This document shows, in pieces, positions 7,400 to 58,185 of a DNA stretch of 64,000 nt. The translations under genes were made by a program, and so were the position numbers. The notes under the pieces are model-generated. The model saw nothing but the letters and a program-made list of their open reading frames with translations, had not been told where the DNA came from and searched no databases. Positions within the stretch are counted from its first letter, which is position 1; every line of letters starts with the position of its first letter. Location: the NCBI RefSeq assembly GCF_964194155.1, contig NC_135916.1, forward strand, positions 1,302,001 through 1,366,000, given 5' to 3'. Origin of the DNA: Cetorhinus maximus (Eukaryota).

Positions 7400-7810
7400 G
7401 AGGATCCACGCATTCACTCATTTTATACCTTCGGGAGGAATGGCGGTGCGATCAATGCTTATTGGTCCATTTTATTACAGCTGCTAATGTTCTTCCTATT
7501 ACCAATCAGATCCCTGCATGATTCACCAACGTGGAGACGTCACGTGGTTGACGTCCGAAAGTAATGGCGCCAAATCGTCAGTTACCGACCCATTATATAT
7601 TTCAAATTTGCAAGACCGCCAAAAAAATACGGCACAAAAATCGTAATAGCTAATTCCCTTTTTAAATTATAACAATGCGCGATTCACCCAATTCTCTCCA
7701 TCTTTTGGACATCCTACAGTTTACCTGTATCTGTTAGTTGCTGACTTTTGAGTGCGGAGTTTCATGTCTCTGACATGAAGCAGAAATTAAAGGCGCCAAT
7801 TTTGCAGGAA
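7400..7810 (-). pseudogene. Orphan H2A promoter region with no H2A CDS
   Basis: Colinear with 26720-27145 (TTATAC..GGAGGAATGG, ACCAATCAGAT, GGCGCCAAATC, TTATATATTTCAAATTTG..ACCGCCAAAA); no H2A ORF or stem-loop. Confidence 0.75.
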
Positions 7811-9794
7811 CCGAGCCTTTGTTATATTGAACATTGAAAAGCCCGACGAAACGTGTGTAAAACGAATAATTAATTTGATACAGAATATTGCCTTAACATA
7901 TAACACAGTCATTTCCATAGTTTAAAAGATTGGTCTCCCTTATTGCACTATATCATATTTGATCACAAGCCCCAAATTGGCTATTAAAATCCGGAATCCA
8001 TTCGGGTTTAATCTCGGACCGTTTTTCCAGTCCTCTTACTCTATGTTCAACAGATTCTGGCATGTGAATATGGGTTTTTTTAGGACTCTCTGCACCTTGT
8101 ATATCATTGTCCATTCTTTGAATATGATGCTCACTTTTCAACTTTTTAATGTAGCATGTGAACATGGATTTTAATCAGGACTTATCAGTTGTTGACTGTG
8201 TATAAGTGTCATATTCCTTCTGTATGTATCAGCCTCTGGTGCTGTGTATGAATCTTGCTAACCTTTGTTATGTGCCTGTTGTGGTTCTGGAAATGGCTGC
8301 AGAATTAATACTCTAAATGTAAATTTTGGACACTGTGGGCATTGAATTCGTTTTTTTCTTTCACCATATCTGTTAAGAATTGATGAATTGTGTGTTTTAT
8401 TATGTGTTTTCACTTAGTTGAATACTGTGATAGAGTTGAATTAATCCTGTACCCACCAGTGTGTTGTATTGTATGTGGATGAATACATTTTGCCCTCTGT
8501 GTAGGACTCTGTACTGCTATGTATGGAAGAGTGCATTCATTCTATCTGCAATATTTTCTGGTACTATCCGTGAGAGAGGGATTCCATCTAAATCTGTCAA
8601 TATCTGGAACTAAATGTGAGAATGAAGTTGATACAAATCCAGCCAAGCTGTTTGAGAGCAATATTTTTTTGTGTGTCAGTCAATCTGGGCAATTTTATGT
8701 CATTGTGGGTTTTTGGCTCTGCGTCCTTAAGACTTTTCTAAAAAGATTTGTGTATGTCTGTGGCTCCTGCTCTCCATTTAATTCCCTGCTACTCTGTATG
8801 TGGTTGAATAATGCATTGCTTCCCAATGTATTGTTAGTTTCTTGCTCTATATTTATTAGTCACTTAAATTGATGGAGTGTGTATTCACTCATTTAGCTGA
8901 CAGTGAGTGTGATTCATTCAAATTATCCCTGTATCTGCTATTGCATGGGAATGTGCCACTCTCTGCATGTCTTTCAGTGCCTGATACAATGCATGATTTT
9001 GGGATTAAATTGTACATGACAGCGTCCGGTAAGGTATGTGTTTGTGGAGTTATTTCTATAATGTTATGGCCTCTATGATTCTATATGAATGAGATTATTT
9101 TGGTATACTTCAGTTTCAGGTAGGCTAAGTGAATGTGGGGTTCATTATTTATCTTTCAGCCTTGGTGCTTTCCAAGAGTAAGTGCTAAGGGTAAACAAGA
9201 AGTGTTCAGAGAATTTACATTATGATTCTTAGTGAGAATATTGATATGGCACGTGTTGTGTATTAAGGTCTGTATTCATTAAAATTATATTTTACCTTTA
9301 TTTCAGATATTGTATGAGATCTTTGGTGTGGAATTTAATATGTTGTTCTGTGGGGCGTCTGGGTACATTCTTAGCTTCACATATACAGCTGATTGAAATG
9401 CACAGATTTAATGCTAAGACTCCACTCTTGTGAAAGGAATGGATTGTCTTGCAATCTGAAAATGTTTTTGGATAAGATTGATGGGCCTACCATTCTGTGA
9501 CACTCAATGAGTGTGAATTGGGGATAATATTCTGTCTCCCCTGTCGCGTTTGAATGTTGTATTGAACATGTCTGCCCATTTTTGGTTTAACCTATAACAT
9601 GGGTTCTACCAATGTTATAGCCATAGGTTATATTCTGTAGTTGCATCGGAGTTCAAGAATGGTACTCAATTTGTAGCTCTGTGAAAACAATTGTGAATAG
9701 CTACATCCCCTTCAATCAACTATATAGCCTCACATGTAATTGATGCAGTTTGTAGTCAAGGAATTACCATTGTACCTTTATTCATGCAGAGCTT

Positions 9795-10275
9795 TTCATA
9801 GAATCACAGAATCACACAGTGCAGAAGAGGTCCTTCAGCCCATCGAGTCTGCAACAACACGTGAGAAACACCTGACCTACCTACCTAATCCCATTTACCA
9901 GCACTTGGCCCATAGCCTTGAATGTGATGATGTGCCAAGTGCTCATCCAAGTACATTTTAAAGGATGTGAGGCAACCCGCCTCCACCACCCTCCCAGGCA
10001 GCGCATTCCAAACCGTCACCACCCTCTGGGTAAAAATTTGTTCCTCACATCCTTCATAAACCTCTTGCCCCTCACCTTGAACTTACGCCCCCTCGTGACT
10101 GACTCTTCAGCCAAGGGGAACAGCTGCTCCCTATCCACCCTGTCCATGCCCCTCATAATCTTGTACACCTCGATCAGGTCGCCCCTCAGTCTTCTCTGCT
10201 CCAACGAAAACAACCCAAGCCTATCCAACCTCTCTTCATAACTTCAATGTTTCATCCCAGGCAACATCCTGGTGA
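9795..10275 (-). mobile_element. CR1 LINE 3' fragment
   Basis: Minus ORF LGLFSLEQRRLRGDLIEVYKIMRG; (ATTCTGTG)n-like tail at left end. Confidence 0.92.
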
Positions 10276-11769
10276 ATATTTTGTTAGACTGCTATGAAAT
10301 ATATAGCCCTGTCTAAATTCTGAGGCACTGATTTGCATTTTATTAAGTACCTTACAGTGAGCTATCTTATTTTCTGTTCTGGCTAAGAGCAGTTAAATAA
10401 TATCTGATGAGAATGAAAGAGTGAATATGATATTTGTTGTGTATTCTGTTAATCCTTTGATATTCTGCTGGATTAGATGCTAGATGGATATATAAAGCAA
10501 GTTAATGAAGACTCACCGGATCTGTTTGTCTCTTGGATTGAACAGTTGTCTCTTCCCTTTGAAACAGTGTGGGAATGAATGATTATTTATTTGTGACAGT
10601 GGACATAATGACCTGGCAGCATCTCTGTTCTCTGTGAGCGATGCTGCACCTACCTTGTGTTGGAACAAGCTCACTTTTCATCTTGCTTATGTTATAACTT
10701 TTATAGTTATCACTATTATGTATCCACCTTAGTTACTAGCCTCATCTGTCAATGCATAGCATTGTTTGTGAGCTGAGATTTGTTCACTTCTTTTTAAATT
10801 GATCCTTTCAACCATTTTATGTTTACTATTGTTTCCACTCCATATTAATTTATTAATTTGCAGGCCTGTACTATTATTTGAGTAATGTTTCCATTTTTAA
10901 AAATGAGGCTGAATTTCACTTTCATAACACATGGGTGATAAGATTATTTTGTCATCTTATTTGAATTAGGATCCCCTTCTTTTCTGCAATTAATTCTATG
11001 AATTGCATGTAAAGTCACTGGGATACATTTAGGTATTTTAACCTGTATCAAATATATTTTTTTCTCTGGAATGGAAGTGTGATGTTGGTCTGTAACTCTC
11101 AGGCTGTATTTGCAATTACACTGCACGTTAATTTTGTTGTGAGTGAATGACTTTTTAAAAAATCCATCCATGTCTTTTTTTTTTAGCATAAGATGTGTTT
11201 CATTCTCTATTTTCCAGTTTTCTTTTAGATAATGAGTGTAAGTTCTGTATAATTGTGTGCATTTTCAGGTATGTGAGTATGATTAGTTTTTCTCCTCCAG
11301 TTGTATTTATTAATTTCTCAGAGGCTAAAATGTGACTTTGCCATGGTACCTGTCAGTTACTGGTAAGTGAGTGCTGGTGTTACACTGTCCCTGTGAATAT
11401 CTGGTGTATGAGCATTACTTTGTAGCACTTCATTACTTGCAAGTGACTTTTTTTTCTCCCTCTATCTGTCAGTTTGTGGCATGTGAGTTTGAATGTGTGT
11501 GTTGGGCTTACTTGGCATTTGACTGTTTTGTTACGTGTCTGCTAAGTTAATGTGAATATACACTTTTTTTTTCAGTTTTTAAAATGTAAACATGTGTTTG
11601 AGTCTTATTCCCGGTCTCTGACATGAAAATGAGGAAATACCATAAATGTTTCAGATTTTTTTTCTGTATGTGTCACATATATTCTTTAATCATTCGTCTC
11701 TTGTAAAGAAATTCTAAGATTTACTCAGATTCTCTCAGTAAAGTTATGTCATTGTGTGATTGTAGAACT

Positions 11770-11869
11770 GTGTGTGAGCCTGTCTGTGTGTGTGTGCCTG
11801 TCTGTGTGTGTGCGCCTGTCTGTGTGTGTGCGCCTGTCTGTGTGTGTGCGCCTGTCTGTGTGTGTGCGG

Positions 11870-11902
<33 letters not shown>

Positions 11903-12030
11903 GCTGTCCTTGTGTGTGGGTGTGTGTGCCTCCCTGTGTGTGTGCGCCTGTCTGTCTCTTTGCGTGCCTGTCTGTGTATGCGCTTGTCTGTGTGTGTGCG
12001 CCTGTCCTTGTGTGTGGGTGTGTGTGCCTG
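11770..12030. repeat. TG microsatellite / 18-bp CCTGTCTGTGTGTGTGCG minisatellite
   Basis: Directly visible. Confidence 0.95.
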
Positions 12031-12597
12031 TTTATGCTCCTTTTGTCTCTCTTATGTGTGAATGGACTTTTCTCTCTATCTGTCATTTTTCAATATGTAC
12101 TTGTGCACATTGACTGGCACTCACAAGTATCTGGCATGGTGTTAAAGGCTAATTTTGTACATATCCAGTTTTAGCCTTTCTCTTAGGATAGCCTTGGCTT
12201 TAAGTTGTAATATTCGGCTTCTGGTATGGAAGTGCACATTTTACCTGTACCTGACCCTTTTAGATATGAGATTCTGGTACTGAAATTGTCTGCTCGTTTC
12301 TAGCCTCTGATGTGAGCATGGCTTTTACTTTTGTTAAAGTTAGCATTTTTAATGAGACTCTGCATTTACTGTGAATTTCAGTATCTGATCTACGATTGTG
12401 GATTTTAATCAGTCCTGATTTGTTTCTGTTTGGGATTGATATCTCTGTTATAGGAGTGATATATTCCATTCTGTTATTGTCTCTTTCTAATGAGGTGAAC
12501 GATCCTTTTTGATCAGAATCTGTTTAATTTGGTGCCTGAATATGGGATTTGCTTTGCAATTGTCAGATTTTGACATGAAGGAATGTTTATAATCTGT

Positions 12598-12832
12598 AGC
12601 AAAAGCAAAAACAAAATATCTACAGGTGGATTCTTGAAATCTCAAGAAAAAGGAAACACAATTGCTGGGAATACTGAGCAGGCCAGACAACATCTGTGGA
12701 GACAAGAGCTGAATTACCCTCCACCTGAAAATTCTGATATCAGAAAAGGTCATTGAACTGTGATGTTCACTCTCATCCTGTCTCCACAGGTGTTGGCTTC
12801 CTTGCTGAGTATTTCCTGCATTGTTGGTGTTT
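12598..12832. mobile_element. Old Penelope-derived inverted-terminus remnant
   Basis: GCTGGGAATACTGAGCAGG..CATCTGTGGAGAC inverted against TCTCCACAGGTGTTG..GCTGAGTATTTCC; orthologous copies at ~34780-35010 and ~55545-55780. Confidence 0.65.
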
Positions 12833-14360
12833 CTTCCTCCCCCTGTACGTGTTAATTTCCAACAAGTGAATATGGCATCACTGATCACCTGCCAATGTCT
12901 GACAAATATGTTTCACTTCTATTCTGACAGGGTTTCAACGTAGAATTTGGTGTGCGTGTGTGCACATGTGCATGTTTCTAGAAAGGAAGAAATTTATTTT
13001 TTCTGCACTTTACATAGAATGCTATGCGAATGTCAGTTCAGCCTGTATCTGTCACTTTTTAACATGTTACTACGAGTCTTATTCTTTACCTGTCTATGAA
13101 TGGGGATTTTAAAATGCACCTAGTTATTTGCTGCTGTGTGACTTTTTTCTTTTATAGATGTTTGGAATTAATTATGGGTTTTTAAAAAAAATATATACGT
13201 AATTCAAAAATTATCTGAAAGAACATTTCTAAATCGCCATCACAAAAAGTGCAATCAGATTCAACTTTTACACATGGATCAAGAGTTGCTTCTATACAAT
13301 CAATGAATATTACAATCAATTCAATATGGTCATTACAGGCAGTCAGACAGCGCAATGATATTGGAGTTATCAACATACATCATGTTGCACTTTTGAGGTG
13401 TTTCAATACTATTACTATTCAGTGCAGATATTTTTTTGTGAGCCGTACAGCTTTACTCTGGGTATTTAACTCTCTGTAATGCACTTGTGGCTATTACTCT
13501 GCACCTGCCAGTGCCTGACATGTGAGGATGCATTTTGCATTCACTGTTGCTGACATGTAAAGCAAATTTTACTACTTAACTCTCAGTTACTGGTATATAG
13601 ATGTGCAGATTTTATTCTGTATCTGTAATTCTGTGATATGTTAGTTTGATTCATTTTCCTGTTGTTTGGCTCAGGGTCAGAAATATGAGCATGGAAAAAA
13701 AATATGTTGAAACACTTAGGCTATTTTAAATGAATGAGAATTTAATTATTTGCTTTCAATCCCCAGAATGAGAATGTGCCCTATGCTTATCATATTCTTG
13801 TATGTGAGTATTGTCTTTCCTCCAGGTCTGTATGCACCTTGTAGGTCATGGTCGGTTTTGCTGTGAACATGTCAGCCTGTATTACTTGATTGTGATGTTC
13901 ACATTGCAGCTTTCAATTTAGTGTGTGAGCATGGACCATTCGCTCCCTCCCCCCAACCCCTCAACCCAAACCTACAGATTTTGATGCATGTTCATGTGTG
14001 ATTTTACCGTAGCTATCAACGTCTGCTTTCTGGGTATCCATTTTCTTCCTATTTTTAAAATTCTGTTATGGGAAACTTGATTTTATTCTACACCTCTCTA
14101 TCGCTGGTATGTGTCTGTGGTTTTACAATGTAAGCATCTGCCCCTGTCATGGGAATTCAGGTTTCTTCTGTATCTGTCAGTCTCTCCTATGACAGTGCTG
14201 TAATGTTATTTGCCGTACTTGTCAATATCTGCTTTGTCAGTTAAGGTTTAACCTATCTTCTTTGTAGAGATCTGTTGATATAACTATTAGTGAGTATATT
14301 GACCTGGCACGTGATGTGTATGTGTGTCTGTCTTAATGAATATGTACTTTATCATTATCA

Positions 14361-14985
14361 GGGGGAGGCGATGGTGTTGTGATGTTGTCATTGTTGTCAC
14401 TATTAATCCAAAGACCTAGGGTAATACTCTGGGGACCCGGGTTCGAATCCTGCCGAGGTTTGGCGGATTGTGAATTCAATAAAAATCTGGAATTAAAAGA
14501 ATAATGGTGACCATTGTCGATTGTTGTAAGAACCCACCTGGTTGACCAATGCCGGAAACCTGTTGTCCTTACTTAGTCTGGTCTACATGTGGTGTTGTGT
14601 TAGACCCACTTGGCCACTCACTTGTAATAAACTGCTAAAAAGTCACAAAAATGGAATGGAATCAGATGGACCACCCGACACTGACTGAGGCACCGGAAAC
14701 AAAAATGACTAAATTCAGCCCTGTCGACCCTGAAGGTAGATGGGAACACCTCCAGCTAGAATTTCCACTCCAAGTCACTGCACGATCCTGACTTGGAAAT
14801 ATATCCTGTTCCTTCACTGTCGCTGGGGAAAAATTTTGGAACTGCCTCCCTAACAGCAGTGTGGGTGTACCTACACCACGTGGACAGCAGGAGTTCAAGA
14901 AAGCAGCTCACCACCACCTTCTCAAGGGCAACTAAATGGTGGCACAGCCAGAAAAGCAAACATCCCGTGAATGAATTTAAAAAAA
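14361..14985 (+). mobile_element. tRNA-derived SINE with LINE-like 3' tail
   Basis: B box GGTTCGAATCC ~14441; tail AAGAAAGCAGCTCACCACCACCTTCTCAAGGGCAA..GAATGAATTTAAAAAAA; empty site in unit 3 (~56435). Confidence 0.8.
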
Positions 14986-15404
14986 GATATTATATGGGAT
15001 CTTTGGTGTTGAATTTATGGTGTTGCTTTATGAATGCTGGGTGCGCTCAAGGATTAATTCTGTAAATTTCAATCAGCTTTAATACCTGGTATTTAAATTA
15101 CAGGCGATGTTCTACTCTTGTGACATGAAAGGGCTGCTCTTCAATCTGATAATGGCTGTGATTGTTGACTGCAATTGGTGGACCTGCAATTCAGCAGTAC
15201 TGAGTAGGAGTGTACTGTAGTAAAATTATTCCACCTCCCCTGAGTGTCTGACCATTGGATGGAGCATTTGTACCTGGGTTTGAGATCAATTTGAGCCTGA
15301 CTATTTCTGTTCTCGGTGATGGTGGAGCTGATGTTCTGTCTGTATCTCTGCACTCTCGGAGTAACATCGTGCCTGCTGTCAGTTAGAAAGAGGTGGCTAG
15401 ACGT

Positions 15405-16215
15405 TTATTTTTCCTGGGATATCATCAGCTTGAAACTGATCCCTTCATTGATTTGCCTGGAGGAAGAAACATAAGTCTTGTAACACAAAATCAGCAGAGG
15501 ACATTGAAAAACAATAGGTCAACATAATCTTTCAACTGACAATAAATAAAAAAATATATATCTAGATGCAAAACATAACGATACAATAAATACTACAGTG
15601 TCTGATTCCACGTCAGCAACCTGCTTTGGTAGTTTTCAAGCAATTGAGTGACACTCAGAAACAATCCACATCTGTATGGCTCCAAGGGTGACACTCCCCG
15701 AGGATACAAAGACAGTTCAGATATCAATATCCAGCTCTCAGCCGGTGCTAAAATGTTTATATCTTAATAGCTGGTGCCTCCAAAGCGTGACCCCTACATG
15801 GTTACTCTCCTCCTTACTCTCTGCCTGTTACCACTGTTCACTGTCCAAATGCCGACAAGTTGCATGAATCAGCAGCTATACTTGGAATATGCATTACAGG
15901 TTTGAGGGGAGAAAATCCCAATAGTTTACAATTGCAGCTTCCTCAGGTTCTGTCTCCCTCAGCAGGGCCACACACAGCCCCAGAAAGGCCTCTCCCCGAC
16001 CACCCGCTCACTCCAAGTTCCGGAACACGTTCGCGCTCCGCTCCGCCTCTTACAAACAGCCCCCGGTTCCCCCTGAACTTACCCCGAGTCAATGATGATT
16101 TCTGTGTCCACACTGACAAACCGGTGCCCTGCTGGAATCAGAACGCTGTTTACTCGCTTACCCGGGCCCTAAGATTTCCATTTCTATCTGTTTGAAACAA
16201 AGGTCTCCCGCTCAC
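15405..16215 (-). ncRNA. Putative spliced unknown gene (copy 1), lncRNA or micro-ORF
   Basis: Near-identical ~270-bp core in 3 units; donors CGG|GTAAGC (exon end 16162) and GGG|GTAAGT (16083); acceptor TTTCTTCCTCCAG|G (exon start 15456). Transcription is inferred only. Confidence 0.45.
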
Positions 16216-16254
16216 AGTGAAAAGCCCTCAAAGGTCAATTCTTGGGAGAAATGA

Positions 16255-16362
16255 GGGGCGCATGCGCTCTTCTAGCCATGTCTGAGAAAACTGAGGGCAG
16301 CAATGCGCAAGCGCTTCCCTGGAACAGACGTCACAGAACAGACGTCATTTGCTCCGCCCCTC
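16255..16362. promoter_or_regulatory. TATA-less promoter: two NRF1-type sites, two GACGTCA motifs, GC box
   Basis: GCGCATGCGC 16258; ATGCGCAAGCGC ~16303; GACGTCA ~16327 and 16341; CCGCCCC ~16354. Confidence 0.65.
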
Positions 16363-16528
16363 AGTCAATGTTCTCCAGCTTGAGCATCACAATGGGTCTG
16401 TGTTGAACGGGCAGAGTTTCAGGCAGGTAGACGATTCCTGAATGAAGCTCAAACTGATATCGCTCCCTGCAGCATCTTAGCTGTTCATTCACCGGTTTAG
16501 CAAATCAATCCGCCCAGTGAATCTATGT

Positions 16529-19014
16529 CAAAAAAAAACAGAATTACCTGGAAAAACTCAGCAAGTCTGGCAGCATCGGCGGAGAAGAAATCAGTTAACG
16601 TTTCGAGCCGTCTCAATTTCTCTGCTCCTCTCACCCATTCTAATCTGTCTCTCTCTGAACTCACTGCACTCCGTTCTCTCAGGTCCAACCCCAACATTGT
16701 CATCAAACCCGCTGACAAAGGTGGTACTGTTGTTGTCTTGCGCATGGACCTCTACCTCGCGGAGGCTGAGCGTCAACTCGCAGACGTTTCCTCCTACCTC
16801 TCCCTGGACCATGACCCCACCACAGAACATCAAGCCATTGTTTCCAGGACTGTGACTGACCTCATCTCCTCTGGAGATCTTCCTCCCACAGCTTCCAACT
16901 TGATAGTCGCCCAACCTCGGATGGCCTGCTTCTACCTCCTACCCAATATCCACAAACAGAACTGTCCTGGCAGACCGATCGTGTCAGCCTGTTCCTGCCC
17001 CACGGAACTCATTTCTCGTTATCTTGACTCCCTTCTCTCTCCCCTTGTCCAGTCCCTTCCCACCTACATCCGTGATTCCTCTGACACCTTACGTCACATC
17101 AACAATTTCCAGTTCCCTGACCCCAACCGCTTCCTCTTCACCATGGATGTCCAATCCCTCTACACCTCCATCCCCCACCAGGATGGTCTGAGGGCCCTCA
17201 GCTTCTTCCTTGAACAGAGGCCCCAACAATCCCCATCCACCACTACTCTCCTCCGTCTGGCTGAACTTGTTCTCACACTGATCAATTTCTCCTTTAACTC
17301 CTCTCACTTCCTCCAAATAAAAGGTGTGGCTATGGGTACCCGCATGGGCCCCAGCTACGCCTGTCTCTTTATGGGGTATGTGGAACATTCCTTGTTCCAG
17401 TCCTACTCCGGCCCCCTCCCACAACTCTTTCTCCGGTACATCGATGATTACTTCGGTGCTGCTTCATGCTTTCGTCGGGACCTGGAAAAATTTATTAATT
17501 TTGCTTCCAATCTCCACCCCTCCATCATCTTCACATGGTCCATCTCTGACACTTCTCTTCCCTTCCTTGACCTCTGTCTCAATTTCTGATGATAGACTGT
17601 CCACCAATATCCATTACAAGCCTACCGACTCCCACAGCTACCTCGACTACAGCTCCTCACACCCCGCTTCCTGTAAAGACTCCATCCCATTCTCTCAGTT
17701 CCTTCGCCTCCGTCGCATCTGTTCTGATGACGCTACCTTCAAAAACAGCTCCTCTGACATGTCCTCCTTCTTCCTTAACCGAGGTTTTCCATCCACGGTC
17801 GTTGACAGGGCCCTCAACCGTGTCCGGCCCATATCCCGTGCATCCTCCCTCACGCCTTCTCCTCCTTCCCAGAAACACGATAGGGTCCCCCTTGTCCTCA
17901 CTTATCACCCCACCAGCCTCCGCATTCAAAGGATCATCCTCCGCCATTTCCGCCAACTCCATCATGATGCCACCACCAAACACATCTTCCCTTCACCCCC
18001 CTTGACGGCATTCCGTAGGGATCGTTCCCTCCGGGAACCCTGGTCCACTCCTCCATCACCCCCTACTCCTCAACCCCCACTTATGGCACCTCCCCATGCC
18101 CACGCAGAAGATGCAACACCTGCCCCTTCACTTCCTCTCTCCTCACCGTCCAAGGGCCCAAACACTCCTTTCAAGTGAAGCAGCATTTCACTTGCATTTC
18201 CCCTAACTTAGTCTACTGCATTCGTTGCTCCCAATGCGGTCTCCTCTACATTGGAGAGACCAAACGCAAACTGGGCGACCGTTTTGAGGAACAACTGCGG
18301 TCTGTCCGCAAGAAAGACCCAAACCTCCCTGTCGCTTGCCATTTCAACACTCCACCCTGTTCTCTTGCCAACATGTCTGTCCTTGGCTTGCTGCATTGTT
18401 CCAGTGAAGCCCAACGCAAACTGGAGGAACAGCACCTCATCTTCCGACTAGGCACTTTACAGCCCACTGGGCTGAATATTGAATTCAACAACTTTAGATC
18501 TTAAACTCCCCCTCCCCCCATCCCCACCCCGTTTCTTTCCCCCCCCCACCCGCTTTTTTTTCAATAATTTATATAGATTCTTCTTTCCCCACCTATTTCC
18601 ATTATTTTTAAATCTAAAACTAAAACCTTTAGTCTTTCCACCCCACCCCCACTAGAGCTGTACTTTGAATATCCTGTTTTCCATTCTTAATTAGCACTTT
18701 TCTCAGACAAAGAACTCCACCTTCAACACCTCTTTGATCCTTTTGTCTGTGACATCTTTTGATTATCTGCTCACACCACACCCTCAATGTGTCTCTTTCA
18801 CCCCCCCCACCCCACCCCCCACCCACCTTAAACCAATTTATATTTCTCCCTTGTTGAAACTATGCTGCAGTTCTGCCGAAGGGCCATGAAAGCTCGAAAC
18901 GTTAACTGATTTCTTCTCCGCCGATGCTGCCAGACTTGCTGAGTTTTTCCAGGTAATTCTGTTTTTGTTTTGGATTTCCAGCATCCGCAGTAGCTTTTAG
19001 CTTTTTGTTTTTAT
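16529..19014 (+). mobile_element. Penelope-like retroelement (RT + GIY-YIG), 5'-truncated, inverted pLTR, frameshifted
   Basis: RT motifs FTMDVQSLYTSIP, GVAMGTRMGP and RYIDD; GIY-YIG NLVYCIRC..YIGET (18175-18504); 16531-16608 is the inverse of ~18890-18967; 14-bp TSD CAGTGAATCTATGT at 16515 and 19015; frameshifts near 17575 and 18040. Confidence 0.93.
18868..18908 (+). ncRNA. Minimal type-I hammerhead-like motif in Penelope terminus (variant core CUGCCGA)
   Basis: CAGTT-CTGCCGA-A-GGGC..GCTC-GAAAC-GTT-AACTG. Confidence 0.6.
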
Positions 19015-39223: not shown

Positions 39224-40062
39224 TTATTTTGGTTGGGAAATCAACAGCTTGAAAACCATCCCTTCATTTATTTGCCTAGAGGAAGAAACATATCTCTTGT
39301 AAGTCAAGATCTGCTGAGGTTTTGAAAGAAAATAGGTCAACGTAACCTGTCAACTGATAATCAATTTGATTAATGCGCTACAAATTATAAAGAATAATAA
39401 AAAAGTACAGTCCCTGATTCCACTTCAGGAATCTGCTTCGGTACTTTTCAAACATTTGAGTAAAATTCAGAAACAGTCCTGACCTGTCCTCCTCCAAGGA
39501 TGTCACTACCCGAGGGGACAGGTACATTGATGCAAGTCAGGTTTCAATTTCCAACTCCCATTGTAAGAGCCGTCAACTGAAACTAACAGGCGCTGCGACA
39601 GTGTTTCTTTAACACATCACTTGAAAAGCTGGTGCCTGCGATAGGTGATATTTAATTGATTGTTCCCCATCCTCACTGTCCGCCTGTTTCCACTGTTCAT
39701 TGTCCAAATGCCGACAAGTTTCATGAATCAGCAGCTATACTTGGAATATGCATTACAGGATTGAGGGGAGAAAATCCCAATAGCTTGCTCAAGTTCTGTC
39801 TCCCTCAGCAGGGCCACACACAGCCCCAGAAAGGCCTCTCCCCGTCCACCCGCTCACTCCAAGTTCCGGAACACGTTCCCGCTCCGCTCCGCCTCTTACA
39901 AACAGCCCCCGGTTCTCCCTGAACTTACCCCTAGTCAATGATGATTTCTGTGTCCACACTGACAAACCGGCGCCCTGCTGGAATCAGAACGCTGTTTACT
40001 CGCTTACCCGGGCCCTAAGATTTCCATTTCTATCTGTTTGAAACAAAGGTCTCCCGCTCACT
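39224..40062 (-). ncRNA. Putative spliced unknown gene (copy 2)
   Basis: Core ~39790-40062; donor exon end 40008; acceptor TTTCTTCCTCTAG|G at 39275; NRF1-type sites at 40103 and 40151. Confidence 0.45.
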
Positions 40063-43170: not shown

Positions 43171-44415
43171 CTAACTGTGTGTGTGCCACTCTCATTCACT
43201 ATGCCTCTCTCTCTCTCCCACTCTCTATCTCTCTCTCACTCACTATTCCTCCCTCTCTCTCCTTTCACTCTTGCTCCCTTTCGCCCCCCATCTCTCTACT
43301 TCTGGTGCTGCGAATGTTACTGAGGCTGTGCTCCATCCTCCATTGATATGCGTGACACTGTCACTGTTCTCACCACTCTCAGAAATTCAGGTCTGGTAAT
43401 TTCTTCTGATTATCTCTAATAAAAAATCGAAGCGTGTTCACAACATCTCTGTTACTGCCTGAAACGTGACTAACCGCGAGTGCATGTTCACATATAACTG
43501 GCCCGCTCTGGTTGTTGAGGTAGGGGTACATTGCAAATTGTGAAATTGTGACCTGTCAGTTCAAGAGGAGCAAAATAAACAGGGAGTTCTGGAGGGACCG
43601 GGAACAGATAATTTATATTGTCACCTGGAATAAACATCTTGATGTGAGCTATTCAGATAATAGCCTGAAATCACATATGATTGTCCACGGAATCTGCGAA
43701 TCAGACAGTCTGCGGCTCCCATGTCTCAGAGTGTTAGATGTTTTTTTCTGAATTTACAATATGCAGCAAATTAATAGAAAGCCGTGCAAATTTCTAAAAG
43801 AGGGGCAATTCTCTCCTGAGACCCTTACATTTGATACTAGTTTCAGCCTGTGAAGGTGCAGATGTGAACATTGTGTAAGGGAGCGTAGGAAATGGGCGGG
43901 CGAGTCAGAGGAATGAAACTGTGTTTGTGTGTCCGTTCTGATCATGAGGTTTCCGAGACCCGCTTGCGTAAAATAAAAATATTTCCCATTCAAAAATTCC
44001 CCCTGTTCCCCAGCTTAACCCCGAAGTGAGATTTCAAGATCATTTCTGTGTTGTTTTCTAGATTTCAGTCCAAAACTAGAGGACATGTCAGTGATCGGGT
44101 GAAGGAGCCGCAGTAAATCAGGTTTAAATCGAAACTGGAGTCTTCAATTCGCGTGACATCTTTTCGACAGCAAACATTACAATGTCAGAGATAAGATGGA
44201 TTGAGTCTGGGACACTGGAGAGCCGGAATTTCCATGGAATTGGGGAGTTTGTGAGGAGAGAAAAACACAGAGAGGCAGCAGCAGCCTGGAGCTGACAGCA
44301 GCCTGTCTCCGCCCCGTCCGCTCGCTGCCTTTAAGTTGCTCAGTGCCGCCACCAGCGGCTTCATTTCTCAGCCCGTTCACATTGACAGAGACACTTTTGT
44401 GCAGAGTCCCGGAAC

Positions 44416-45072: not shown

Positions 45073-45939
45073 GCAAAGACAGGAAAGAAGGGAAAGATCC
45101 CGAGCAAATTGTAACCCTCTAAACCCAAAGGCTCTTTTCAGAGCCGCCCACATTTCACATGAAAGAGCTGATCCCCTGATCATTTGATCCCTGTCTCGGA
45201 GCTGGGAGCTGATTTCAGATGGAAATGTTTCGTTTTCCTCCCACGTAAATCCTATTTTCCCGCTGACTCACTGACACACTCTCCACCCGTCCCCTCCCGC
45301 ACTGTGCAATAAAACACAGGGATATCCTTACAGCTCCCTAACCGGGATGTGTCCCAGTGCATTCAAAGTTTATCTTCGTTCCCTTATTCACATTTTCAGG
45401 GTGAGAGTATGCAATGGAGTTAAACCCCGCCTCACAACTAATACCCATATCAGTATATTTTATCTAATTCTGTTGGATGAGGTGTCAGCGAATTTCTCAA
45501 TCCCTTTTGGCGGTGTGGAGGGAAGGATGAGGCGTGAGTCTAGAGATGTGTGAGTATAGAATATTACAAGGATTGAAATAGAAGCAGGCATCTGACTCTT
45601 TATAGAAAGTGCAGTATTGAGGGGGGAATATTATTGACAGTATTGATTTTAATACGATTTTCTAACTAGCTGGTGTATGATGTTGGCGTGTTAAAGTTAC
45701 TTTAAAAGCTCTCTGTTCACCTCTCTTCAGAATTTGATAAATAAATGCTTTTCTGGCAGGCAGGAGGAGGTTGCTGGTTTACCAGAGACATTGCCCTGTC
45801 TGTCACTCAGTCTGTCTCGCCCCGCCTCTCACACTCTCTCTCTCTCTCTCTTCTCTCCCTTCCTCAGTTAGGTCGGGGCGGGCTGTATAAAAGCGGAACG
45901 TGAAGCAGCTCCCCACTCATTCAGCAGCGATTTGACTGA

Positions 45940-46260
<321 letters not shown>

Positions 46261-47868: not shown

Positions 47869-48205
47869 TCCGGCCAGCAATCGATCAGGGGATGAAAGAA
47901 TTTAATCTGCGTTCAAAAGCAGGAAGTCGGAGCTGTTACCGAAATGGGGCTCGCAAACATTGAGACCTTGTGATATTTGTCGCATTGATATTTATTTGAA
48001 CTGCCTTCAAACTAGGTTTCTTTTAATTTCAGTTACTCGTCCCTTTGAAATTGGCGGGCATTTTGAAATTGATGAACTGTCAGTTTCTGCTCCATCAATC
48101 AGGGCCCAGGAATCCATGCAGCCCGCTGCTCTTTTCAAATTTCTGGGCGGGATTGCGCTGCATCCAATCAGGACAGGAGGGAGGTGACGGACATGTCTTA
48201 AATAG

Positions 48206-48673
<468 letters not shown>

Positions 48674-57350: not shown

Positions 57351-58185
57351 CTATGTTGGCTGGTGAAACTTGAGCTTGAAACTGATCCCTTCATTAACCT
57401 GCCAGAGAGGAAGAAAGATATCTCCAGTAACTCAAAATCAGCTGAGGTCAGTAAAAGGCAATAGATCAATGTAATATTTCAACTGATAATCAATTTCAAA
57501 AATACTGTACATATTATGGCGGACAACGAAAAAACTACAGTGTTTAATTCCACTTCTAACTATTGAGAGACATTCAGAAACAACCCACATCTGTACGACT
57601 CCAAGGGTGTCACTACGGGGGCCCAGAGATTTTAATTTCAGGACAGATTTTAATTTCCAGCTCCCTTTGTAAGAACCGCCAACTCAATCTAACTGTGGAA
57701 GGGACAATGTTTCTTTGAGACGCCTCAGCAGAACAGCTGGTGCCTGCAACACGTGTCGTTAACATTACTGCTCCACTCCTTACTCTCCGTCTCTTTCCAC
57801 TATTCACTGTCCAAAAGCCAACAAGTTGTGTGAATCAGAAGCTAAACTTGGAATATGCATTACAGGTTTGAGGAGAGAAAAAGAAAATAATAGTTTTCAA
57901 TTGCAGCTTCCTCAAGTTCTGTCTCTCTCAGCAGGGCCACACAGCCCCAGAAAGGCCTCTCCCCGTCCACCCGCTCACTCCAAGTTCCGGAACACGTTCC
58001 CGCTCCGCTCCGCCTCTTACAAACAGCCCCCGGTTCTCCCTGAACTTACCCCGAGTCAATGTTGATTTCTGTGTCCACACTGACAAATCGGTGCCCTGCT
58101 GGAATCAGAACGCTGTTTACTCGCTTACCCGGGCCCTAATATTTCCATTTCTATCTGTTTGAAACAAAGGTCTCCCGCTCACTGA
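57351..58185 (-). ncRNA. Putative spliced unknown gene (copy 3)
   Basis: Core ~57910-58185; donor exon end 58129; acceptor shifted by 4 nt; GCGCATGCGC ~58227 and ATGCGCATGTGC ~58277. Confidence 0.4.

What the first reader, a model, noticed from the sequence alone, without database searches (positions are those of the whole stretch)
15945..16362. An unnamed gene-like module in every histone repeat unit, conserved almost as well as the histone CDSs
Seen: a ~270-bp GC-rich block (15945-16215, ~39790-40062, ~57910-58185) differs by only about five substitutions between copies 1 and 2, while the surrounding spacer is heavily diverged. On the minus strand all three copies keep two 5' splice donors (CGG|GTAAGC and GGG|GTAAGT). 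About 700 bp further on there is a polypyrimidine-AG acceptor (15456, 39275). Upstream, the sequence diverges strongly, yet two NRF1-type GCGCANGCGC sites survive in all three copies (second site imperfect in copy 3). I do not recognise the block as U7, 7SK, RNase P/MRP, telomerase RNA, tRNA or 5S. Inference: a TATA-less Pol II spliced gene, transcribed away from the next H1 and into the 40-bp array, is an integral member of this histone cassette. It could be a lncRNA, a small-RNA precursor or a locus-organising RNA.
Basis: partly seen in the sequence, partly recalled or inferred. Interest (0 to 1): 0.8.

Follow-up and report, generated by a model that had tools for sequence, protein, structure and literature searches.

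The report
Repeat-RNA gene inside shark histone cassettes
The repeated histone gene units of this probably shark genome each carry a fixed extra non-coding gene, made of a promoter-like start, an intron and a long array of about 46-base repeats, which is spliced in presumed RNA data from a related species and likely helps keep the histone clusters active, a role that is untested.

Summary
The block is the 5' end of a multi-copy, spliced, non-coding Pol II-type gene: two NRF1-type sites, a short first exon with alternative donors, a ~705-nt intron and a long A-rich exon built of degenerate ~46-nt repeats. One copy sits in each of 44 amplified histone units on contig C39 (45 copies in all). All 44 units lack H2B and 16 also lack H2A. 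Diverged relatives (99, plus at least 40 of another type) lie in a second histone/tRNA cluster on C32; 40 of 67 tested are head-to-head with H4 at 1.1 kb. Contigs of presumed RNA runs from a related organism show the predicted GT-AG junctions onto acceptor 15456; a DNA run shows none. No ORF, Pfam, Rfam or RNA-fold signal. Caveat: the histone-like identity between copies mostly reflects gene conversion. Cross-species and C39-C32 divergence of the block is only slightly below its flanks, although promoter and splice motifs persist. Best guess: a cis-acting histone-locus lncRNA/promoter. Passenger and DNA-element readings remain open.

The parts
16305..16314 (.). distal NRF1-type site (variable among copies; the NRF1 label is recalled)
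16258..16267 (.). proximal NRF1-type palindrome, perfect in 44 of 45 C39 copies and kept in C32 types
15830..16222 (-). homogenised 5' block (CpG-rich; inferred start region, exon 1, 5' part of intron); 81-99% identical between spacer subfamilies against 55-73% just outside
16162..16222 (-). exon 1, short form (5' end inferred, not mapped); donor 1 at 16161
   Evidence: junction 15455>16161 CT..AC in run X2; equivalent joint on unit C
16083..16161 (-). extension of exon 1 to alternative donor 2 (intron starts at 16082)
   Evidence: table 5c row 15448>16077 plus 2 letters equals 15456>16083 (my arithmetic); GT kept in 45 of 45
16003..16026 (-). most conserved family motif, with an invariant GTRAG donor-like site at 16011; shared with the C32 types
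15457..16161 (-). intron (705 nt from donor 1); further donors used in the relative near 15929 and 15584
   Evidence: joints in X1, X2, X3
13361..15456 (-). exon 2, the part covered by overlapping contigs of three presumed RNA runs; no ORF or Pfam match
8200..15456 (-). A-rich body with decayed ~46-nt repeat units (26 units on the transcribed strand, 1 on the other, 0.4 in shuffles), interrupted by CR1/SINE pieces; 3' end unknown
39793..40061 (-). copy 2 of the core (subfamily B), acceptor near 39275, array running to about 27100 just upstream of H2A
57916..58182 (-). copy 3 of the core (subfamily C), shifted acceptor near 57400, array to about 50900
7400..7630 (-). orphan H2A promoter left in unit A, whose H2A gene is deleted while the module is intact

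Best explanation
The block is the promoter-like start and first exon of a multi-copy, spliced, non-coding gene that sits once in every histone cassette, and it likely acts in cis on the histone cluster rather than through a protein or a small structured RNA. Shown: the anatomy, the copy numbers, the confinement of promoter-bearing copies to two histone clusters, GT-AG junctions in presumed RNA contigs of a relative, and the lack of coding or Rfam signal. Inferred: NRF1-type sites and a CpG-rich start drive Pol II independently of S phase; the clustered donor-like sites recruit U1 and let Pol II run through the 6-9 kb repeat array; this transcription and the nascent ~46-nt-repeat RNA keep each cassette open and help gather histone-locus factors beside H1/H4 (upstream, head-to-head) and H2B/H2A (downstream, same strand). 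The near-identity of copies is produced largely by gene conversion acting on this active 5' block, as on the histone coding regions; selection is visible mainly in motifs.
For: 45 copies, one per unit, on C39. Kept in 44 of 44 amplified units although all lost H2B and 16 lost H2A. An edge unit shows the older order module>array>H2B>H2A. A second cluster (C32) has 99 relatives and at least 40 of a further type; 40 of 67 are head-to-head with H4 at 1.10-1.12 kb against 2.7% for random positions. The relatives align through promoter, exon 1, intron and acceptor, and one type lost donor 1 and the acceptor together. Junctions onto acceptor 15456 occur in X1, X2 and X3 (three studies); a donor-1 joint on unit C is present in X2 and absent from DNA run X5, which covers 30 of 30 bins. 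Several donors feed one acceptor, no Pfam match. Repeat units are strand-specific in all 45 units, 13-47 against 0-4. By analogy, most architectural RNAs contain repeats (PMC5750707, passages).
Against: No experiment on function. The RNA nature of X1-X3 is a guess by the tool, they come from another organism, and contigs give no start, end, strand or level. The block is only modestly more conserved than its flanks between clusters (61-71% against 54-58%) and between species (about 4-9% against 6-9% differences), so conversion can explain the striking identity. The array is badly decayed in C39 and its type varies freely. 57 of 97 listed C32 H4 genes have no type II/III module within 1.3 kb. 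Only 3 of 20 further C32-type copies, picked mostly for lying away from a listed H4, had a histone gene within the 10 kb fetched. Promoterless exon-2/array fragments exist away from histones.
Confidence: 0.45

Rival explanations
1. Neutral passenger: an old CpG promoter plus minisatellite was captured in the ancestral histone cassette, co-amplified with it and homogenised by gene conversion; its RNA does nothing.
For: Histone four-fold sites differ by 0-1% within C39 while spacers differ by 25-40%, so conversion is strong. Divergence of the block from the relative's contigs is near that of exon 2. The body is decayed and full of CR1/SINE pieces.
Against: Kept in all 44 units while H2B and often H2A were lost. 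Donors and the NRF1-type site are near-invariant, and motifs survive between clusters whose introns are about 55% alike. The homogenised block has sharp borders.
Confidence: 0.25
2. DNA element: a CpG-island enhancer, boundary or replication origin serving the neighbouring histone promoters; the spliced RNA is a by-product of divergent transcription.
For: The conserved block runs about 250 nt into the intron with no RNA structure signal (z 0.06, -0.66, 0.79). Fixed 1.1-kb head-to-head spacing to H4 on C32; 2-6.5 kb from H1 in most C39 units.
Against: Splice signals are conserved and used; the repeat array is always oriented with transcription.
Confidence: 0.2
3. Trans-acting repeat RNA or small-RNA precursor (piRNA cluster, or an Xlsirts-like germ-line RNA) that merely uses histone clusters for amplification.
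For: Long non-coding exon with TE fragments and tandem repeats; more than 180 copies. Xlsirts are non-coding, tandemly repetitive oocyte RNAs (PMC9624338, passages).
Against: No miRNA-like Rfam match in the body. Spliced contigs of over 1 kb are recovered intact. No complementarity to histone genes beyond 13-14-nt matches.
Confidence: 0.1

Closest known systems
Non-histone genes interspersed in histone repeats (5S rRNA or rDNA in Artemia, Mytilus, boll weevil, snails; PMC13525598, passages)
   Same: A non-histone transcription unit is a fixed member of the tandem histone unit and is homogenised with it.
   Different: Those are known Pol I/III structural RNA genes; this is a spliced Pol II-type gene with no Rfam match.
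Architectural repeat lncRNAs: Drosophila Hsr-omega, human SatIII, rDNA IGS RNA (PMC5750707, passages)
   Same: Long non-coding RNA made of tandem repeats, transcribed from a repetitive locus.
   Different: Nuclear-body localisation is not shown here. Repeats are ~46 nt and degenerate, and the gene has more than 180 copies tied to histone cassettes. That review lists histone pre-mRNA, not a lncRNA, as the scaffold of the histone locus body.
Drosophila H3-H4 promoter GA repeats bound by CLAMP (PMC5588930, abstract and outline)
   Same: A repeat-bearing cis element in every histone unit, proposed to open the locus.
   Different: That element lies in a histone promoter and is a short GA run; this one has its own promoter, intron and kilobase array.
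Xenopus Xlsirts (PMC9624338, passages)
   Same: Family of non-coding, tandemly repetitive RNAs.
   Different: Xlsirts localise to oocyte germ plasm; no histone linkage in the passages seen; homology not tested.
Newt histone clusters with read-through satellite transcription (recalled; PMC2114352 seen only as search listing, on satellite 2)
   Same: Transcribed tandem repeats near gene clusters in a vertebrate.
   Different: There the repeats are read through from upstream genes; here the array has a dedicated promoter and splicing and is transcribed towards, not from, H2A/H2B.

Membership tests
spliced Pol II lncRNA gene | GT-AG intron removed in RNA | tested here: met
   Joints with CT..AC ends onto 15456 in presumed RNA contigs of a related organism; none in DNA run X5. 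RNA status is the tool's guess.
spliced Pol II lncRNA gene | no conserved coding frame | tested here: met
   0 Pfam families in three minus-strand frames of 12900-15455; no C2H2 or histone motif in the body. By hand reading only a 23-codon frame crosses donor 1 in subfamilies A and B; its ATG is absent from C32 types.
spliced Pol II lncRNA gene | capped 5' end, mapped start and 3' end | not testable with these tools
   Only contigs available.
known structured RNA (snRNA, snoRNA, 7SK, U7, tRNA, 5S, miRNA) | covariance-model match or stable conserved fold | tested here: not met
   Rfam none at gathering or E<=5 on the module, one chance tmRNA-type hit in a SINE-like piece, none relevant on three relatives; fold z 0.06, -0.66, 0.79; no tRNA in the window.
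architectural RNA (arcRNA) | enriched in a nuclear body | not testable with these tools
   Criterion from PMC5750707.
architectural RNA (arcRNA) | needed to build or stabilise the body | not testable with these tools
   Needs depletion or tethering.
architectural RNA (arcRNA) | contains repetitive sequence (common trait, not sufficient) | tested here: met
dispersed transposable element | dispersed copies with independent insertion sites, terminal repeats or coding remnants | tested here: not met
   Promoter-bearing copies only on C39, C32 and a few small contigs among listed hits; outlying copies are promoterless fragments inside segmental duplications; one 5' block per unit, no LTR pair.
zinc-finger gene 5' exon | downstream C2H2 array | tested here: not met
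   No C2H2 linker motif in 1.05 Mb of C39 or in fetched C32 stretches.
piRNA cluster | 24-32-nt PIWI-bound reads with 1U bias | not testable with these tools
   No small-RNA reads available.

The most novel reading that the evidence does not exclude
Sharks build a dedicated repeat lncRNA gene into each histone cassette whose nascent RNA nucleates histone locus bodies: a vertebrate histone-locus architectural RNA, amplified with the cassettes and retained even when H2B and H2A are lost.
Probability: 0.17. Interest if true: 0.88.

Novelty: new variant of a known kind. Interest (0 to 1): 0.58.

Why it matters
How histone clusters are recognised and kept ready for transcription in vertebrates is open; the one defined cis element I read about is the Drosophila GA-repeat/CLAMP system. 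A discrete gene present once per cassette in two independent clusters gives a concrete target for CAGE, FISH and knock-down. Even if it is a passenger, it shows gene conversion homogenising an active non-coding 5' block as tightly as coding sequence, and warns that paralog identity in tandem arrays is not evidence of strong selection. The H2B-less 44-unit array is itself unusual.

Tried and rejected
No RNA holder listed for the own organism; run X8 of the DNA holder's species covered 7 of 30 bins, repeats only; neither is evidence either way. Cover in X1-X3 stops near 16243 and most of unit C's body is uncovered; contigs cannot fix starts or ends, so this is not used. No joint from the module into H2A was seen on unit C and no good acceptor lies before H2A/H2B, so a spliced long-leader histone mRNA is unsupported; 16 units also lack H2A. 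A C/D-box-like motif on the plus strand (about 16090-16118) is too short, not kept in C32 types and has no Rfam match. The RNAalifold consensus was weak and long-range. Outlying exon-2 copies were checked as processed retrocopies and are not: intron-side sequence precedes them. The third 3-mismatch pattern type on C32 lies among tRNA genes and does not align as a module; the single C18 hit showed no module. A metagenome scan for the family motif found 0. No other eukaryote genomes were searchable. Earlier-findings look-ups returned nothing. Ten literature searches returned no paper describing such a gene; the library lacks most subscription papers, and I did not check genome annotations or supplements, where such loci may be listed as uncharacterised lncRNAs.

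Full report
Observation. The window is G000:C39:1302001-1366000 of a 4.0-Gb genome; a cartilaginous fish is my inference from the histone and CR1 sequences, not a tested result. It holds repeated units H1(+), H4(+), H3(+), with or without H2A(-). The block 15945-16215 recurs at 39793-40061 (98.1%) and 57916-58182 (96.7%) amid spacer of 65-85% identity.

The array. I fetched C39:0.90-1.95 Mb. It holds 45 modules: one in each of 44 amplified units and a diverged one at 1.922 Mb, with an inversion at about 1.69 Mb. Exact donor patterns hit 41 of 41 times inside this array, reversed controls 0. No amplified unit has H2B; H2B motifs occur only at 936 kb, 952 kb and 1689 kb. Spacers fall into three subfamilies; all 16 A units lack H2A, all 15 B and 13 C units have it. 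A fragmented edge copy at 958-960 kb keeps the order module, array, H2B, H2A on one strand, which I take as the older state. Between subfamilies, identity is 0.81-0.99 from about 15825 to 16222 and 0.55-0.73 just outside. Mean pairwise identity of the core is 0.960, against 0.977 for H1, 0.992 for H3, 0.970 for the H1 promoter and 0.85 for intron and exon 2. Donor 1 is intact in 43 of 45, donor 2 keeps GT in 45, a third donor-like site is invariant in 45, and the proximal NRF1-type site is perfect in 44.

Transcription. No RNA run was on record for the own organism. Three runs from three studies of a related organism, guessed by the tool to be RNA and held as contigs, were laid on 12100-16520. 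X2 has the joint 15455>16161 with CT..AC ends, the predicted minus-strand GT-AG intron. A row 15448>16077 with 2 letters between equals 15456>16083, donor 2, by my arithmetic. X3 has 15455>15584 (CT..AC), and X1, X2 and X3 share 15456>15929. All use the same acceptor. Overlapping contigs cover 13361-15457 at about 91-94% identity, and parts of the intron too. On unit C, X2 again joins across the donor-1 intron, while DNA run X5 covers 30 of 30 bins without that joint; X1-X3 cover 14, 19 and 15 bins. X5 is from a different organism than X1-X3, so it is not a same-species control. Strand is inferred from the splice polarity; start, end and level are not shown.

Not coding, not a known RNA. Pfam finds nothing in three minus-strand frames of 12900-15455 (the rest of the body was not scanned). 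No zinc-finger motif occurs in the 1.05 Mb. Rfam finds nothing on the module or body or on three relatives, and the 5' blocks fold no better than shuffles.

A second cluster. A 24-mer with up to 3 mismatches gave 154 hits, control 0 (100 listed). The C32 variant has 99 copies, 94 on C32 and 5 on small contigs. Three of the first four C32 loci fetched with 40 kb lay beside histone genes including H2B; the fourth, among tRNA genes, is not a module. The relatives align over both NRF1-type sites, exon 1, intron and acceptor. Type II keeps donor 1 and acceptor; type III lost both. Of 67 copies within the range of the 97 listed H4 genes, 40 are head-to-head with H4 at 1.10-1.12 kb (random 2.7%) and 58 lie within 25 kb (random 47%). 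Of 20 more copies, chosen mostly for lying away from a listed H4, 19 have a sense array but only 3 a histone gene within the 10 kb fetched. A shortened type has at least 40 copies, 39 on C32; the one examined leads through an array to H2B.

The body. It is A-rich on the transcribed strand and, in C32 types, a clear degenerate tandem array of period 45-46. A profile trained on one type III array finds 20-26 units in the window's bodies on the sense strand, 0-1 antisense, under 1 in shuffles, and 13-47 against 0-4 in all 45 C39 units. The same unit occurs in 160 near-exact places, mostly C32 among the 100 listed. The ten outlying loci fetched are promoterless fragments, mostly in segmental duplications, without histone genes in range.

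Selection or conversion. Histone four-fold sites differ by 0-1% within C39 and 13-18% between clusters, so units are homogenised. Between clusters the 5' block is 61-71% alike, intron and exon 2 54-58%. Against the relative's contigs the block shows about 4-9% differences and exon 2 or intron 6-9% (upper bounds, since paralogs mix). The histone-like identity is therefore mostly conversion. What argues for function is motif retention, use of the splice sites, orientation of the array and retention where core histone genes were lost.

Mechanism. I commit to a cis-acting histone-locus lncRNA gene (0.45): constitutive CpG/NRF1-type initiation, U1-site-rich 5' end, long repeat transcript that keeps cassettes open or gathers locus factors. 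All steps after splicing are inferred. Rivals: passenger (0.25), DNA element with by-product RNA (0.2), trans-acting or piRNA precursor (0.1).

Comparison. A 2026 review of histone gene organisation describes 5S and rDNA inside histone repeats and has no occurrence of 'shark', 'noncoding' or 'satellite' (PMC13525598, term search and passages). An elasmobranch genome preprint notes histone and tRNA co-clustering (10.1101/2025.06.08.657570, passages), as on C32, with no mention of lncRNA. Repeat content fits architectural RNAs, but their two defining tests cannot be run here (PMC5750707, passages). I file it as a new variant of repeat-containing lncRNA genes with a new genomic setting, not as a member of the arcRNA class.

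Noticed in passing
G000:C39:0.97-1.90 Mb (window included): A 44-unit histone array with no H2B gene in any amplified unit, H2A missing from 16 and H4 often doubled; H2B is abundant on C32 and scattered genome-wide (533 motif hits).
   Followed up: partly
window 16530-19000: A young retroelement insertion (reverse-transcriptase ORF at 16501-17589, GIY-YIG-like tail near 18019-18504 by eye) between module and H1, with about 80-nt near-identical ends; related pieces in other units.
   Followed up: no
L144-L148 and window 44400: The family's most conserved motif in C32 types shares 12 identical bases with the sequence around the H1 start codon of the C39 units; may be chance.
   Followed up: no
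window histone promoters 44110-44409, 45650-45948, 47960-48262: The TGACAG hexamer at the core of the 46-nt unit occurs 4 times in the 300 bp upstream of H1, H4 and H3; post hoc and untested.
   Followed up: partly
G000:C32:9112200-9112700 (L166): Two shortened modules back to back, each leading through an array to an H2B-H2A pair.
   Followed up: partly
C1-C31: Dozens of dispersed exact H2B motif hits on large chromosomes, possibly retrocopies or fragments carried by a mobile element.
   Followed up: no
C11:0.10, 0.35, 1.50 Mb; C16:2.63, 6.54 Mb; C20:3.05 Mb; C23:79.67 Mb; C81, C236, C263: Promoterless 46-nt arrays near contig ends inside shared segmental duplications, some freshly homogenised.
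   Followed up: partly
G000:C39:941709 and 1906431: Long ORFs of an endonuclease/reverse-transcriptase retroelement flank the array; one is inserted at the start of an H3 gene near 1904400.
   Followed up: no
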